A stretch of DNA of 64,000 nt from Promethearchaeota archaeon. Lineage in GTDB: Archaea > Asgardarchaeota > Lokiarchaeia > Sigyniarchaeales > SOKP01. The notes beneath the pieces are model-generated. The model made no database searches, was not told the origin of the DNA, and saw only the letters and a list, made by a program, of their open reading frames with translations. Positions 254 to 11,414 of the stretch are shown piece after piece; positions within the stretch are counted from its first letter, which is position 1; each line of letters opens with the position of its first letter. The stretch is taken from assembly GCA_019058295.1 (NCBI GenBank), contig JAHPZI010000022.1, positions 92,316 through 156,315 of the forward strand, written 5' to 3'. The translations under genes were made by a program, and so were the position numbers.

Positions 254-343
254 TTATAAATCTATTCTTGGGATAATATCCTCAATTTCTCTTCTTGAAG
301 GTTTGTACTTAAAGTATCTTCTTGATACACTATCTTCGAGTAT
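254..343 (-). pseudogene. Orphan duplicate of the 3' end of the acyl-CoA dehydrogenase gene
   Basis: Minus strand reads ILEDSVSRRYFKYKPSRREIEDIIPRIDL*, versus VLEDSESRRYFKYKPTKRESEDFIPRIDL* at 1800-1889 (23 of the last 28 aa identical, many synonymous changes). The upstream HGGGSN motif codons are absent. Confidence 0.9.
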
Positions 344-499
344 ATCTTTGATAAACAATTTTTTAAAGCGCTTTATGAAATTAAAAGAACTCAATAACAA
401 TTGCTAAAATATAATGGATGATATAAATTAATTTGATTGAATACAAATTATTGCACTCTTATTAAATATATTTAGAGGATCTAATAAAAATATAGAAAA

Positions 500-1669
500 T
501 TGAGAAAGAATAAAGATATGAAAAAAGACTTATCTAAAAACTTATCATCTAAAGAGTGGAGTCTTCTAAGAGAGAAGACATGGTTAAAAATAAATAAAAT
601 TTTTGAAGAACAAAATTCTAAATATGAAAGGCTGATTGATTTTGATAAAATTAAACAAGATATAATGAATAAATTAATAGTTGATTTTAAAGAATTTAAG
701 GATTTATCAGATAGATATAGAGAATATTTTAATAGTTCAATAATAGCAATTTATCTGTTGAGAACAGGCAAATATCAAAGCCAAAATGAGATTGTTAAGA
801 AATCTAGATTTGCTGGAAGATGGCATATTGAAGCTATAAGAAAGTGTTTGAAGTTTAATCTTAAAGAATCTATTTATTCTAGCTTATTTTTTGACAAAAA
901 ACAAAGATTAAAAGAATGTTCTGAATGTAGAAAAATTTTACCTTTTAAGAAATTCTCTGGGAGAAGTAGGAAATGTAATGATTGTAGAAATGTTAAAAAT
1001 ATGATTAATTATCATCAAAAGAAATTAGCTGTAGCTATTTTTATTACTCTTAAGCAGAATAGAGAAATTTTAATAGATGATTTTTTAGATTTAATTAAAA
1101 TGGAGGAAAAATTTTATTTAGAAATAAAGTGTAAAGAATGTGGTTTAAATGTGAATTATCTTCCCGCGTTGGAATTTCATCATCCTAGTATAAAATCAGA
1201 TATGTGGGATAAGCTAAGGAGTCGTCCTATAGATGCAATAATTAAAACATTAAATAAAGAAGAATCTGTCTTAATCTGCTCTAACTGCCATAAAGTATTG
1301 CATTCTAAATATTTTAATAAGAATAAACGTGAAAAAATATCAGAGTTAAATCGAAACATTACTCGAAATCGTGCTTTAATTCGTCTTAAAATGAAGCGAA
1401 TTATACTGGAAGAATTATATGGAGGTGTTTGTTCTCACTGTAGAGTTGCAGATTTTAAAGTACTACCAGCGATTCAATTTCATCACCCAGATCTTAAGAA
1501 AATTGGATGGCATAGGTTAAGAAATTATAAAGATCTAGATTATATTAAACATAAATTAATATCAGAAAATTGCATAGCTTTATGTGCTAATTGCCATCGT
1601 ATGGAAGAGGCAATACTATTCAACTCTCATAAAGATGAAATTTTATCAAAATATTTATTACATTACTGA
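500..1669 (+). CDS. Tandem (double) HNH endonuclease with an upstream C4 zinc finger
   Basis: CSEC-x15-CNDC finger, then two repeats of CxxC...(E/Q)FHH...CxNCH (CKEC..LEFHH..LICSNCHKVLH and CSHC..IQFHH..ALCANCHRME); very basic protein. Start may be TTG 500 or ATG 518. Confidence 0.8.
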   Translation: MRKNKDMKKDLSKNLSSKEWSLLREKTWLKINKIFEEQNSKYERLIDFDKIKQDIMNKLIVDFKEFKDLSDRYREYFNSSIIAIYLLRTGKYQSQNEIVKKSRFAGRWHIEAIRKCLKFNLKESIYSSLFFDKKQRLKECSECRKILPFKKFSGRSRKCNDCRNVKNMINYHQKKLAVAIFITLKQNREILIDDFLDLIKMEEKFYLEIKCKECGLNVNYLPALEFHHPSIKSDMWDKLRSRPIDAIIKTLNKEESVLICSNCHKVLHSKYFNKNKREKISELNRNITRNRALIRLKMKRIILEELYGGVCSHCRVADFKVLPAIQFHHPDLKKIGWHRLRNYKDLDYIKHKLISENCIALCANCHRMEEAILFNSHKDEILSKYLLHY

Positions 1670-1799
1670 TCAAAGATTTATTTTAGTAAAAATATTAGTG
1701 CATTATTTACTTATAAAGATAATTTAACAAAAATATAGTATTTTACTTTTTAGTTAGTGTCTCAATTATTTGAAATAAAATTAAAAATATAAAAAAAAT

Positions 1800-3165
1800 T
1801 TATAAATCTATTCTAGGTATAAAATCTTCCGATTCCCTTTTTGTAGGTTTGTATTTGAAATATCTTCTTGATTCGCTGTCTTCCAAGACATAATTGCTCC
1901 CCCCTCCATGTTTCTTGACTCAATAGCGATCTGCTATGAGTTATCATGCAATAAGGGTCGAGCAATCCAATTGGATTGGAATATTGCCTAATGAAACCGC
2001 GACCGCCCATTGTCCTGAAACAATGTATTGCGCTTTCGAAACCAAGCTCTGTACTAGATATTTTAAGTCCCATTGCTTGAGCTGCCATTAATTTAGAATT
2101 CGCAAGTTCTGGTCGTCGATCTAACTCTCTTGCATAATTTATCAATGTAGAAACTAATAGATTCATTTCCCTTATGTTTTTAGAGATGGGGAATCTTATA
2201 ACTTGATATTCATGCAAACGCCTCTCAAATTGTCTACGATGAAGTGCATATGTATGAGAATATAAAAGCTTTTTCATAGCATCTCCTAAAGCTTCAGCGC
2301 TAATAACTAATCTTTCTTCTGTTAGCTGGTGGAATGCTATATCTAATCCATTTCCATGAATTATGTTATCTATAGGCTGTTCTACTCTATCGAAGGTTAA
2401 TCTACACACGAAAGCATCAGTCATACCATAGGTTCTTATTCTAGCTGATTTAAAATCCCTCAATTGTTGATTTTCAGTATCAACTATAATAGCTCCTAAT
2501 GGCCCATTGTTTATTCTTCCATATACAATTATATAATCAGCGAACATGCCATTTGTAATAAAGACTTTTTTACCTTTAAGAATTGCTTTATCATCCGTTA
2601 ATTGAATATTTAATTCCATTCTTGATATATCGCTTCCAGCATTAAATTCAGTCATGGCTGATGACGCAGGGGCCCCATCTTTGGCAACAGGAATTAGAAA
2701 TTTTTCTTTTTGTTGCTCAGTTGCTTTATAATTGACTGGATTACAATATAATGTCCCTCCTGCAAGACGTCCCATTTCGACACTATAATTTCCTGCAACA
2801 TATCGTTCGCTCGACTCACTCCATCTCCCCCCACATAATGCATAAGCGATAAGTACATTTCTAGTAATTCTTCCAACTTCAAAATCTTCTTCGTTGAGAA
2901 TTGTGCTATAATACCCGTTATCAGCTAATTTCTTTAAAATTTTAATAATGATTTCTTTTTTTTTCTCTTGAGTAGGTTCCTCAACGAAATAATCGAGTTC
3001 CTCTAATATCTTTAAATCTTTATCAATATCTCTCTCTAAAAAATCGTAAAAATCCGCTAAAAATTCTTTTTCTTGGGGAGTAAGTAAAGGATTTGCTAAT
3101 AAGTCTAATTCAGGTACATATTTTTGGATTCTAATTGGTTCAAAATCTCTTAATCTAGTGTCCAT
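1800..3165 (-). CDS. Acyl-CoA dehydrogenase (LCAD/IVD-type catalytic arrangement), spliced: complement(join(1800..1911,1943..3165)), 444 aa
   Basis: AMTEFNAGSD, GKKVFITNG, LTEERL, RRQF and MGGRGF motifs. After removing 1912-1942 the C-terminus is LDPYCMIHGGGSNYVLEDSESRRYF..., with the D-x8-G-[ST]-N spacing of the family. The stop at 1802-1800 is followed by a T-tract. Confidence 0.88.
1912..1942 (-). other. 31-nt bulge-helix-bulge (BHB)-type mRNA intron
   Basis: RNA: ...UUG CAUG AU|A ACUCAUAGC AGAUC GCUAUUGAGU CAAG AA|A CAUGG...; a 9-bp intron stem (one bulged U), a 4-nt central helix CAUG/CAAG (one A.A mismatch) and two 3-nt bulges. Cutting after the second nt of each bulge restores the reading frame. 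Confidence 0.78.
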
Positions 3166-10027: not shown

Positions 10028-10174
10028 TTTTAATCACGATTTCATATTTATTTTGAATAATTAAGTTATTGATAAATTATTAAATACATTAATATTTAAA
10101 TTTTAAAAACAACGCATTAAATTATGTTTTTTTATTTTATATAGTTTAAATTAAGAATTAATATAGTATAGAAG

Positions 10175-11278
10175 TTGATAATAATGTCCGATAAATTTTG
10201 GTATAAAGTTGCAAAAAATATTATGCAAGCTGGGCAGATACCTTTGCCTATTACAGATACATTTATTGAATTTCTTCAAACTGTAATTACAGAGGAGCAA
10301 GCAAAATTTCTATTGATTTATAATAAGTCTTCTTTGAACATAGACCAAATTAAAGATAGAACTGATTTAGATGATGATGCGTTAAATAAAATGTTAAACG
10401 ATTTAATGAATAATGGGATTATTATGAGTGTTCCAAGTGAAATCTATCGCCTTAATCCGCCTCTTCCAGGAATTATTGAGTTTTCTTTAATGAGAGGTAT
10501 AACGAGTGATAAATATAAAAGATTAGCCGAATTAGTAGAAAGATATTTTGATGAACTAGGGGCGAAAATTCAGCAGAATTACGAAAGTGTCTCAAAAGTA
10601 TATACAAAGATCCCAGCGTTTGATAGAATCATTCCAGTCGGGAAAGAGGTGAAAGTTGGTAGTGAGATCATAATACCATATGAAGATGTAGAGAAATATT
10701 TAGAAAAAGTTGGAAAAGAAGAAAATAATATTGCTGTTGGTCATTGTTATTGTAGACATTCCAAAGATCTACTCAATGATCCATGCAAATTAAATGCTCC
10801 AAAATTGAATTGCATTCTTTTTGATAAAGCAGCTAAATTTGCCATTGAACATAACTTTGCTAGTCCTATTTCAAAAGAGGAGGCACTGAAAATCTTTAGG
10901 GAAGCTGAAGATTATGGTCTCGTTCATAGAGTTTTTCATGAACATTTTGATCTTGAAAAAGGGATTGATTCAATTTGTAACTGCTGTCCCTGCTGTTGCG
11001 GGATCTTTTCTTTGTATCATAAAGGCGTGACACCACTCCATACAATTAGTTCTTATTTATCAAAAGTAAATGAAGAGGATTGTGTGGGTTGTGGGACGTG
11101 TGTAGAGAAGTGTCCTATGGAAGCAATTGATTTAGAGGATTCAATTGCATCAGTAAATGAAGAATTCTGCATAGGATGCGGGATTTGTGCCCATCATTGT
11201 CCTGAAGAAGCCATACATCTAGAAAGAATAGGTCCAAGAGATGTATTTATTCCTCTGAAAAAAATTGCCACAAATTAA
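10175..11278 (+). CDS. wHTH + Cys-rich + 2x[4Fe-4S] ferredoxin-domain protein (paralog 1)
   Basis: HCYCRH, ICNCCPCCC and two CxxCxxCxxxCP motifs; likely start at ATG 10184. Confidence 0.85.
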   Translation: MIIMSDKFWYKVAKNIMQAGQIPLPITDTFIEFLQTVITEEQAKFLLIYNKSSLNIDQIKDRTDLDDDALNKMLNDLMNNGIIMSVPSEIYRLNPPLPGIIEFSLMRGITSDKYKRLAELVERYFDELGAKIQQNYESVSKVYTKIPAFDRIIPVGKEVKVGSEIIIPYEDVEKYLEKVGKEENNIAVGHCYCRHSKDLLNDPCKLNAPKLNCILFDKAAKFAIEHNFASPISKEEALKIFREAEDYGLVHRVFHEHFDLEKGIDSICNCCPCCCGIFSLYHKGVTPLHTISSYLSKVNEEDCVGCGTCVEKCPMEAIDLEDSIASVNEEFCIGCGICAHHCPEEAIHLERIGPRDVFIPLKKIATN

Positions 11279-11414
11279 AACATTTAGTTTTAAGAGAAAT
11301 ATTTTAATAAGCTATAAATTGCCTATAATTTATTGTCCCAATTTAAATAAATTATGTAGTTTTATTTTATGTAGTTTAATTTTGAAAATAATATAATAAA
11401 AATGGTTAATTATA

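What the first reader, a model, noticed from the sequence alone, without database searches (positions are those of the whole stretch)
1912..1942. 31-nt bulge-helix-bulge intron inside a protein-coding gene (acyl-CoA dehydrogenase)
Seen: the ORF-track protein loses family similarity after ...LDPYCMI. The insert AACUCAUAGCAGAUCGCUAUUGAGUCAAGAA forms a 9-bp hairpin on a 4-nt central helix (CAUG/CAAG), with 3-nt bulges AUA and AAA on opposite strands. Cutting after the second nt of each bulge (the EndA rule) removes exactly 31 nt and yields C-M-I-H-G-G-G-S-N. This gives D-x8-G-S-N, the same spacing as the canonical RDARITRIYEGTN motif. The alternative register (29 nt) does not restore the frame. 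The independent copy at 254-343 confirms which frame is the real C-terminus. Established: BHB mRNA introns are best known from crenarchaeal cbf5. Caveat: the central helix has an A.A mismatch and the outer exon helix is imperfect, so this is a relaxed BHB.
Basis: partly seen in the sequence, partly recalled or inferred. Interest (0 to 1): 0.9.

Follow-up and report, generated by a model that had tools for sequence, protein, structure and literature searches.

The report
tRNA-type mini-intron in Asgard enzyme gene
A 31-base insert that breaks the reading frame of an acyl-CoA dehydrogenase gene in this Asgard archaeon has the shape, cut sites and evolutionary behaviour of a tRNA-type (bulge-helix-bulge) intron, a kind of mRNA splicing published in archaea only for cbf5. 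In this genome it appears to have arrived by DNA transfer together with a neighbouring nuclease-like gene.

Summary
The ACAD-like gene (minus strand, start codon at 3165) carries exactly 31 extra bases (1912-1942). I read the junction in 126 orthologous loci (some listed twice).

- 123 loci run straight through ...CMI|HGGGSN...
- Three carry an insert: this genome, one metagenome contig, and genome G117.
- In all three the insert is 31 nt, sits at the same site and has the same plan: 1 nt, a 24-nt hairpin, a 4-nt helix strand, 2 nt.
- The three sequences differ, but six base pairs show compensatory changes. One of these pairs an exon base with an intron base in the 4-bp central helix.
- Cutting after the second base of each bulge restores the frame in all three. 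Exon 2 is under purifying selection (pN/pS 0.10-0.20).

The genome encodes a catalytic and a His-less EndA paralogue. Its essential uL11 gene carries a strict BHB insert with an in-frame stop, shared by five species of the genus.

Best reading (about 0.8): an EndA-cut, ligase-joined mRNA intron. No RNA data exist, and RtcB was not found in this 79%-complete MAG.

New here: nucleotide identity to the sister species falls from 96% to 78% exactly at the intron. The native 3' end lies displaced beyond a 1.4-kb HNH-like cassette. Intron, exon 2 and cassette therefore came in together.

Earlier agents of this scan reported similar mini-introns on other Asgard DNA.

The parts
1943..3165 (-). Exon 1 of the acyl-CoA dehydrogenase-like gene (ATG at 3165; ends ...UGC AUG AU)
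   Evidence: ORF and Pfam domains. It is 95.7% identical in nucleotides to the G007 orthologue over its last 600 nt and 92-100% in most 60-nt windows (one at 87%).
1912..1942 (-). 31-nt BHB mini-intron: 1 nt of bulge 1, a 24-nt hairpin (1941-1918), H2 CAAG (1917-1914) and 2 nt of bulge 2
   Evidence: It is absent from 123 of 126 orthologous junctions. Two other lineages have a 31-nt insert at the same site.
1945..1948 (-). H1, the exonic strand of the 4-bp central helix (CAUG, from the Cys-Met codons); the 5' cut lies between 1943 and 1942
   Evidence: It pairs with CAAG here (3 of 4 pairs). L046 has CAUG/CAUG and G117 has UAUG/CAUA, so an exon C-to-U change is matched by an intron G-to-A change.
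1800..1911 (-). Exon 2: last base of the Ile codon, 36 codons (HGGGSNYVLEDSESRRYFKYKPTKRESEDFIPRIDL) and the TAA stop at 1800-1802
   Evidence: The protein sequence is conserved against all orthologues. pN/pS is 0.11-0.13 against G007, L038 and G006. Nucleotide identity to G007 is only 78%, so this exon is of foreign origin.
1892..1967 (-). Exon-exon outer helix arms flanking the BHB (UG/CA next to the 3' bulge, then CCCUU/GAGGG, then GAUUGCUC/GAGCAAUU)
   Evidence: Seen in the MFE and BHB-constrained folds. The CCUU/GAGG and UG/CA parts are also present in G117.
341..1763 (.). About 1.42 kb of inserted DNA that is absent from sister genome G007 and from metagenome contig L038
   Evidence: blastn of the window against G007 and L038. 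The flanks align, this stretch does not, and about 115-122 nt of the target is duplicated.
500..1669 (+). 389-aa ORF with two tandem Cys-rich HNH-like modules (EFHH...CxNCH), convergent with the ACAD gene
   Evidence: The Pfam HNH match has E = 0.003 and 18.1 bits, below the 21.4-bit cut-off. The ORF is single-copy here. Its homologues are patchy and multicopy in 50 of 154 genomes of the order.
254..343 (-). Displaced native 3' end of the ACAD gene (...ILEDSVSRRYFKYKPSRREIEDIIPRIDL*), now a remnant
   Evidence: It is 90% identical to the G007 and L038 3' ends, whereas the working exon 2 is 78% identical.

Best explanation
The 31 nt at 1912-1942 (minus strand) are an archaeal bulge-helix-bulge intron in the pre-mRNA of an acyl-CoA dehydrogenase-like gene of an Asgard (Promethearchaeota) archaeon.

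In the transcript, the exonic CAUG pairs with the intronic CAAG to form the 4-bp central helix. Two 3-nt bulges (AUA and AAA) flank that helix. A 9-bp intron hairpin stacks on one side and an exon-exon helix on the other.

The two-subunit splicing endonuclease (a catalytic EndA plus a His-less paralogue) cuts after the second base of each bulge. An RtcB-type ligase then joins ...AUGAU to ACAUGG.... This restores the Ile codon and the frame, so the conserved C-terminal 36 residues are translated.

Shown:
- The exact insert and the BHB geometry.
- Its recurrence at the same site, with compensatory base changes, in three lineages.
- Selection on exon 2.
- The presence of EndA.

Inferred:
- That cleavage and ligation actually occur.

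In this genome the intron is a recent arrival. It came in at the DNA level together with a foreign exon 2 and a 1.4-kb cassette that encodes an HNH-like protein.
For: 1. The insert is exactly 31 nt against 123 uninterrupted junctions. Its removal gives CMI|HGGGSN. In the uninterrupted orthologue the Pfam ACAD C-terminal domain crosses the junction (compared).

2. Metagenome contig L046 (gene 81% identical in protein) and G117 (71%, another genus) each carry a 31-nt insert at the same site. Both have the plan 1 + 24-nt hairpin + 4 + 2.

3. On the gapless 95-column alignment A2, 91.7% of cells are paired, against 38-60% when partners are slid. Six pairs change on both sides, including the exon-intron pair of the central helix (C-G to U-A). 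None of 500 shuffles reaches these values.

4. The BHB cut rule restores the frame in all three lineages.

5. Exon 2 ends at the same stop position in the orthologues compared (one, G086, reads a codon further). Its pN/pS is 0.10-0.20, with synonymous sites near saturation.

6. The fold has z = -4.8. Random 31-mers meet the geometry in 0.14-0.33% of trials, and 1 of 31 rotations of the real insert does.

7. The insert is not a repeat in this genome.

8. The genome has two EndA paralogues. One is closest to the Aeropyrum pernix heterotetramer subunit (3p1z_B) and keeps the catalytic Y, H and K. The other lacks the catalytic His.

9. The single-copy uL11 gene of this genome has a strict BHB insert with an in-frame TAA inside the GPPIGPxxGP motif. 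Five species of the genus share it, with compensatory changes in the central helix. The lineage must therefore be able to remove such inserts.

10. Three independent assemblies carry the insert, which rules out an assembly artefact.
Against: No transcript, circular-intron or protein evidence exists.

RtcB (PF01139) was not found in this 79%-complete MAG. It is present in 19 of 21 relatives, including all 10 that are at least 90% complete and at most 5% contaminated.

The BHB is relaxed in each lineage:
- This genome has an A.A mismatch in the central helix and only 2 bp of outer helix next to the 3' bulge.
- L046 has a 4x4 internal loop instead of a clean 3' bulge.

In this genome the intron arrived recently with foreign DNA. 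Selection on exon 2 was therefore exerted mainly in the donor lineage.

The unspliced frame stays open for 42 codons, so an alternative C-terminus could be translated.

My own genome-wide BHB-plus-ORF scan showed no excess over decoy cut sites. That scan was swamped by noise and even excluded this locus, so it says nothing either way.
Confidence: 0.8

Rival explanations
1. The insert is a disruptive DNA insertion that is not removed from the RNA. On this reading the gene is a young pseudogene, or makes a protein with a 42-residue nonsense tail, and the BHB-like fold is incidental.
For: Only 3 of 126 junctions carry the insert. In this genome it is recent: the sister species G007 lacks it. It arrived in a recombination event that also left a gene remnant. 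RtcB was not found in this MAG. No RNA data exist.
Against: Three lineages have a same-length insert at the same site. The sequences differ, yet base pairing is conserved and compensated. Exon 2 is intact and under purifying selection in all three. The structure-defined cuts coincide with the orthology-defined borders. The essential uL11 gene of the same genome carries the same kind of insert with a stop codon.
Confidence: 0.08
2. The insert is a translational bypass element, like the 'byp' elements of Magnusiomyces mitochondria or T4 gene 60. The ribosome would hop over the 31-nt hairpin, with no RNA cutting.
For: The insert is a short hairpin-containing element in a coding sequence, and ignoring it restores the frame. 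This resembles byps (comparison from my own knowledge).
Against: No matching take-off and landing codons flank the insert in any of the three lineages: AUA before it, and AAA, ACC or AAA at its end. Bypassing does not predict a 4-bp exon-intron helix with compensatory change, or two 3-nt bulges at fixed distances. The BHB model predicts both. EndA is present, and the lineage is rich in tRNA-type introns (preprint 10.64898/2026.10.13.758758).
Confidence: 0.04
3. The insert is an assembly or sequencing artefact, for example a k-mer-sized chimeric insertion in a MAG.
For: The length of 31 equals a common k-mer size. The genome is a 30-contig MAG.
Against: Independent assemblies (a JGI metagenome contig and another species' MAG) show a 31-nt insert at the same site with different sequence. 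The insert is not derived from flanking or other genomic sequence.
Confidence: 0.01

Closest known systems
cbf5 pre-mRNA BHB intron of Crenarchaeota (Aeropyrum, Sulfolobales, Desulfurococcales; Yokobori et al. 2009, PMC2738675, and the earlier work it cites)
   Same: Both are short non-spliceosomal introns in a protein-coding gene with a (often relaxed) BHB motif. The hetero-oligomeric splicing endonuclease is thought to recognise the motif outside a tRNA context. Both show gain and loss among related lineages.
   Different: The host is an Asgard archaeon. The gene is a metabolic enzyme, not an RNA-modification enzyme. The length is fixed at 31 nt, with a stereotyped plan of 1 + 24-nt hairpin + 4 + 2. 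Presence is polymorphic in 3 of about 120 orthologues. Here the intron shifts the frame. The DNA shows how it was acquired. Splicing has been shown experimentally for cbf5 but not here.
Archaeal tRNA BHB introns, including the heavily interrupted tRNA genes of Asgard archaea (preprint 10.64898/2026.10.13.758758)
   Same: The motif is the same: two 3-nt bulges on a 4-bp helix, half of it built from exon sequence. The presumed enzymes are the same. That preprint found two full-length EndA paralogues consistent with (alpha-beta)2 in 44 of 60 Asgard genomes. This genome also has two.
   Different: The host RNA is an mRNA, so removal must be exact to the base to keep the frame. The exon half of the motif is made from conserved codons (Cys-Met-Ile / His-Gly-Gly). 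The preprint does not treat protein-coding genes.
Ire1-dependent unconventional splicing of HAC1/XBP1/bZIP60 mRNA in eukaryotes (own knowledge)
   Same: An endonuclease and a tRNA-type ligase (RtcB in animals) excise a very short intron (26 nt in XBP1) from an mRNA. The excision shifts the reading frame and so changes the C-terminus.
   Different: The nuclease is different (Ire1, not EndA). The recognition element is twin stem-loops, not a BHB. That splicing is regulated by stress. Nothing here indicates regulation.
Free-standing homing endonucleases that act together with an endonuclease-less intron ('collaborative homing', cyanophage psbA and phage Aeh1 nrdA; own knowledge, not checked in the library)
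   Same: An intron without its own nuclease lies next to a separate HNH-type ORF. Intron, flanking exon and ORF appear to have been co-converted into a naive allele. The break in the recipient gene lies within about 12-24 nt of the intron site.
   Different: Those introns are self-splicing group I introns, and this one is a BHB intron. Nuclease activity and target site of the ORF are untested. The Pfam HNH match is below threshold. G117 carries the intron with no such ORF nearby.

Membership tests
Archaeal BHB (EndA-spliced) intron | [quoted passage not shown] | tested here: met
   This genome has CAUG/CAAG (3 pairs plus an A.A mismatch) with bulges AUA and AAA. L046 has CAUG/CAUG and G117 has UAUG/CAUA, both 4 of 4 pairs. 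The motif is relaxed rather than strict in this genome, and at the 3' site of L046.
Archaeal BHB (EndA-spliced) intron | Flanking helices: an intron helix h' stacked on the central helix and an exon helix h | tested here: met
   h' is 9 bp with a single bulge. h is 2 bp (UG/CA) next to the bulge, followed by 5 and 8 further pairs after small internal loops. The h helix is weaker in L046.
Archaeal BHB (EndA-spliced) intron | Cuts at the symmetric bulge positions give a functional product (here, an in-frame conserved protein) | tested here: met
   The cuts remove 31 nt in all three lineages and give M-I-H-G-G-G-S-N, as in 123 uninterrupted orthologues.
Archaeal BHB (EndA-spliced) intron | The structure, not the sequence, is conserved among homologous introns (covariation) | tested here: met
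   Six pairs change on both sides, and 91.7% of cells are paired against 38-60% for slid partners. Only three sequences are available, so the statistics are thin.
Archaeal BHB (EndA-spliced) intron | The host encodes a splicing endonuclease able to cut relaxed or non-tRNA substrates (the (alpha-beta)2 or epsilon2 type) | tested here: met
   There are two PF01974 ORFs of 201 aa each. One is closest to the A. pernix heterotetramer chain 3p1z_B and keeps Y, H and K. The other lacks the catalytic His. The (alpha-beta)2 assembly itself is inferred.
Archaeal BHB (EndA-spliced) intron | The host encodes the RtcB-type ligase | tested here: inconclusive
   RtcB was not found in this 79%-complete MAG. 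It was found in 19 of 21 relatives, including all 10 that are at least 90% complete and at most 5% contaminated.
Archaeal BHB (EndA-spliced) intron | Excision and exon ligation are observed in RNA | not testable with these tools
Acyl-CoA dehydrogenase superfamily (host gene) | Acyl-CoA_dh_M and Acyl-CoA_dh_1 domains | tested here: met
   PF02770 has E = 3e-11 and PF00441 has E = 2e-13. In the uninterrupted orthologue PF00441 extends across the junction. Substrate and activity were not tested.
HNH endonuclease (neighbouring ORF 500-1669) | Match to the HNH profile above its curated threshold | tested here: inconclusive
   PF01844 scores E = 0.0031 and 18.1 bits against a cut-off of 21.4 bits. 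Two EFHH...CxNCH modules are visible by eye.

The most novel reading that the evidence does not exclude
BHB mini-introns in Asgard protein-coding genes may spread at the DNA level by riding with free-standing HNH homing-endonuclease cassettes. On this reading the HNH-like protein encoded at 500-1669 cuts intron-less ACAD alleles at or near the intron site. Repair then copies intron, exon 2 and cassette from the donor, and the intron protects the invaded allele by splitting the target. This would be collaborative homing with a tRNA-type intron.

The weaker part is fairly well supported: that intron, foreign exon 2 and cassette entered this genome in one recombination event at the intron site (about 0.7). 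The nuclease-targeting part is untested.
Probability: 0.15. Interest if true: 0.9.

Novelty: new member of a known kind. Interest (0 to 1): 0.8.

Why it matters
In the papers I could search, splicing of an archaeal protein-coding transcript by the tRNA-splicing endonuclease is documented only for cbf5 of Crenarchaeota.

This gene shows the same mechanism, by sequence evidence, in an Asgard archaeon, a member of the closest prokaryotic relatives of eukaryotes. The gene is an ordinary metabolic one. Essential genes of the same genome, such as uL11, carry comparable inserts. If transcripts confirm it, these archaea routinely interrupt coding genes with about 30-nt introns that must be removed exactly.

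That would have three consequences:
- Gene callers mis-annotate such genes as frameshifted or truncated.
- Completeness and pseudogene counts for Asgard MAGs are biased.
- Discussions of intron origins gain a prokaryotic example of widespread mRNA splicing.

This locus adds two things that other cases may lack. It is a presence/absence polymorphism at one site, with compensatory changes. It also carries a DNA-level record of how an intron was gained, by co-transfer with a foreign exon and a nuclease-like cassette. The recent preprint on Asgard tRNA introns found that none of the routes it tested gives a general explanation of intron gains.

Tried and rejected
1. Genome-wide BHB scan. I scanned both strands for inserts of 14-110 nt with at least 3 of 4 central-helix pairs, an inner helix of at least 4 bp and an outer helix of at least 2 bp. 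This gave 443,050 candidates. I then filtered for ORF fusion and for codon-usage score, and compared the true cut rule with shifted decoy cuts. There was no excess over decoys at any threshold. The motif is too permissive in a 31% GC genome, gene boundaries dominate the hits, and my 'disrupted frame' filter even excluded the target locus. I treat this scan as uninformative, not as evidence against introns.

2. MITE or REP idea. blastn-short of the 31-mer and of the 76-nt fold against the whole genome found only the locus itself. The next best hits were 13-nt chance matches. Rejected.

3. Donor of the foreign exon 2. No sampled orthologue is closer than about 80%. The donor lineage is unsampled.

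4. HNH-like ORF next to the other intron-bearing alleles. There is none within 4.2 kb downstream in G117. The L046 contig is too short to tell.

5. Identity drop at the intron in L046 and G117. They have no relatives close enough to test this.

6. RtcB in the window's own genome. Not found.

7. tRNA genes in the window. None.

8. Careful ML tree. It did not finish in 300 s, so the quick IQ-TREE result was used.

9. One Pfam call failed because I included a stop codon. I corrected the coordinates and repeated it.

10. Further collection scans for more intron-bearing alleles were not possible.

Full report
**What is at the coordinates**

The window comes from a 3.2-Mb, 30-contig, 30.7% GC MAG that is 79% complete. 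Depositors label its relatives Promethearchaeota, Hodarchaeota or Hermodarchaeota, so it is an Asgard archaeon.

On the minus strand an ORF of 450 aa (1813..3165) matches the middle and C-terminal acyl-CoA dehydrogenase domains. The C-terminal match stops at residue 396, profile position 120 of 150.

The minus-strand text around the finding reads ...UUG CAUG AUA [24-nt hairpin] CAAG AAA CAUGG.... Removing 1942..1912 (31 nt) gives ...C-M-I-H-G-G-G-S-N-Y-V-L-E-D..., ending at a TAA at 1800-1802.

The 76-nt region folds at -27.1 kcal/mol, with z = -4.8 against shuffles. The fold includes an extended exon-exon helix outside the BHB.

**Orthologues**

A search of 61 and then 154 genomes of the same order, plus one scan each of the metagenome and genome collections, gave 126 loci in which the junction could be read. 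Some loci are duplicates between sources.

- 123 loci read straight through as TGY ATG NTN | CAY GGN GGN GGN.
- Three carry an insert: this genome, metagenome contig Ga0180433_10110242 (L046; gene 81% identical in protein), and G117 (another genus; 71%).
- In all three the insert is exactly 31 nt, at the same phosphodiester, with the plan 1 nt + 24-nt hairpin + 4 nt + 2 nt.

In the uninterrupted G007 orthologue the Pfam C-terminal domain runs across the junction to residue 415.

**Structure and covariation**

The three pre-mRNA segments align without gaps (A2). The insert sequences are largely different. This genome and L046 share the hairpin base ACUC/GAGU. L046 and G117 share the loop AAUUUAU.

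For the BHB structure, 91.7% of cells pair, against 38-60% when the 3' partners are slid by 1-3 columns. Six pairs change on both sides, and none of 500 shuffles reaches these values.

The most telling pair lies in the central helix. This genome and L046 have exon C with intron G. G117 has exon U (a synonymous Cys codon change) with intron A. L046 and G117 have perfect 4-bp central helices, and this genome has an A.A mismatch.

The 5' splice site is a clean 3-nt bulge in all three. The 3' site is a 3-nt bulge here and probably in G117, but a 4x4 loop in L046.

Random 31-mers at this site meet a lenient version of the geometry in 0.14-0.33% of trials. Only the real register, of 31 rotations of the real insert, does so. 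The 31-mer occurs nowhere else in the genome.

**Is the gene alive?**

In the orthologues compared, exon 2 ends at the same stop (one, G086, reads a codon further). Its pN/pS is 0.10-0.20 against relatives, while synonymous sites are near saturation.

A quick maximum-likelihood tree puts the three intron-bearing genes in three separate places. Well-supported branches force at least three changes of state.

**Can the organism do it?**

The genome has two PF01974 ORFs of 201 aa.

- One is closest to the Aeropyrum pernix heterotetramer chain 3p1z_B and keeps the catalytic Tyr, His and Lys.
- The other has Ser where the catalytic His should be.

This fits a two-subunit enzyme, the type reported to accept relaxed and non-tRNA substrates (PMC2738675; PMC5829648 abstract).

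RtcB was not found in this incomplete MAG. It is present in 19 of 21 relatives, including all 10 that are at least 90% complete and at most 5% contaminated. ARAGORN finds 44 tRNA genes and calls introns in 10 of them.

Following a lead from earlier notes of this scan, I checked uL11. The only uL11 gene has a TAA inside the Pfam match. A strict BHB sits there: a 7-bp outer helix, a 4-of-4 central helix and a 6-bp inner helix. Removing its 30 nt restores GGPPIGPVVGPTGIN.

The same intron, 28-30 nt long, sits at that site in five species of the genus, with compensatory changes in the central helix (GGUU/AGUC, GGCU/AGCC, AGCU/AGUU). Other species carry inserts at three other sites of the same gene, and many have none. 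An essential single-copy gene with a conserved stop-containing insert is hard to explain unless the insert is removed from the RNA.

**How the intron got here**

Against the sister species G007, exon 1 is 95.7% identical over its last 600 nt. Identity falls to 78% immediately after the intron. The G007-L038 pair is 94-95% identical on both sides.

The window also contains a second copy of the gene's last ~30 codons at 254-343. That copy is 90% identical to G007 and L038. Between the two copies lie 1.42 kb (341-1763) that are absent from G007 and L038. This stretch encodes a 389-aa protein with two HNH-like Cys/His modules.

The simplest reading is one event. Foreign DNA carrying intron, exon 2, the 3' flank and the HNH-like gene replaced the end of the native gene, starting within about 20 nt upstream of the intron site. 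The native end, which begins about 12-24 nt downstream of that site, was left as a remnant beyond the cassette.

No sampled orthologue is a close donor.

The HNH-like family is patchy and multicopy in the family. One homologue, in G095, sits in the same arrangement: convergent with a dUTPase-like gene, with a 217-nt remnant of that gene's 3' end beyond it, and no intron. G117 carries the intron with no such ORF nearby.

The cassette therefore explains the gain in this genome but is not an obligatory partner of the intron. Whether the protein is a nuclease that targets the intron-less site is speculation.

**Rivals**

- **Unspliced disruptive insertion.** This is hard to reconcile with recurrence, covariation and selection on exon 2.
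- **Translational bypassing.** It predicts matched take-off and landing codons, which are absent. It does not predict the exon-intron helix.
- **Assembly artefact.** Three independent assemblies exclude it.

**Literature and earlier findings**

In the held library, archaeal mRNA BHB splicing is described only for cbf5. A 2026 preprint treats Asgard tRNA introns but not coding genes, and two further searches found nothing on Asgard coding genes.

Earlier agents of this scan reported similar mini-introns in other Asgard genomes (radA, EF-1alpha, fbp, cbf5, ychF). First readers noted many in this genome. Of these I verified only uL11, and argG in part.

**Verdict**

RNA-level proof is lacking.

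Noticed in passing
window 341-1763 (ORF 500-1669 +), with remnant at 254-343: A 1.42-kb insert that sister genomes lack. It encodes a 389-aa protein with two HNH-like modules and is flanked by two diverged copies of the ACAD 3' end. This looks like a free-standing homing-endonuclease-type cassette that brought its own copy of the target gene's end.
   Followed up: partly
G000:C30:126577-126777 (L032/L172) and loci L173-L194: uL11 carries a strict 28-30-nt BHB insert with an in-frame TAA in five species of the genus. Relatives have inserts at three other sites in the same N-terminal region: upstream in G006, G002 and G021, within GGPPI in G008, and after GPTGIN in G005 and G022. The region is an intron hotspot in an essential gene.
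   Followed up: partly
G000:C2:54774-55298 (L033): The argG match contains an in-frame TGA inside the SGGLDTS ATP-binding motif (...YSGGLEYIQLMYI*SNTS...). This is consistent with another ~30-nt insert. My contiguous-helix filter did not pick up a BHB there.
   Followed up: partly
G006:C13:33313-34649 and G002:C3:15844-17180: In two relatives the RtcB ligase gene matches in two pieces (profile 1-47 and 47-426) separated by about 26 nt. The ligase gene itself may carry a mini-intron.
   Followed up: no
L161 (G095:C17:70142-74266): A homologue of the HNH-like ORF lies convergent with a dUTPase-like gene. A 217-nt remnant, 74% identical to that gene's 3' end, lies beyond the ORF. This is the same architecture as in the window, but with no intron.
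   Followed up: partly
window about 10119-11330: About 1.2 kb that has no counterpart in the otherwise collinear G007 contig C146, where only about 54 nt lie between the flanking matches. This is another lineage-specific insertion.
   Followed up: no
G061:C492, G115:C14 and G158:C3 (rows): Three ACAD orthologues have a single in-frame stop inside exon 1. In G061 it is a TAA where others have TAT, so it looks like a point change rather than an insert.
   Followed up: no
G000 whole genome: RtcB (PF01139) was not detected in this 79%-complete MAG, although nearly all relatives have it. ARAGORN tRNAs, 10 with introns, and one call has an implausible 2114-nt intron.
   Followed up: partly
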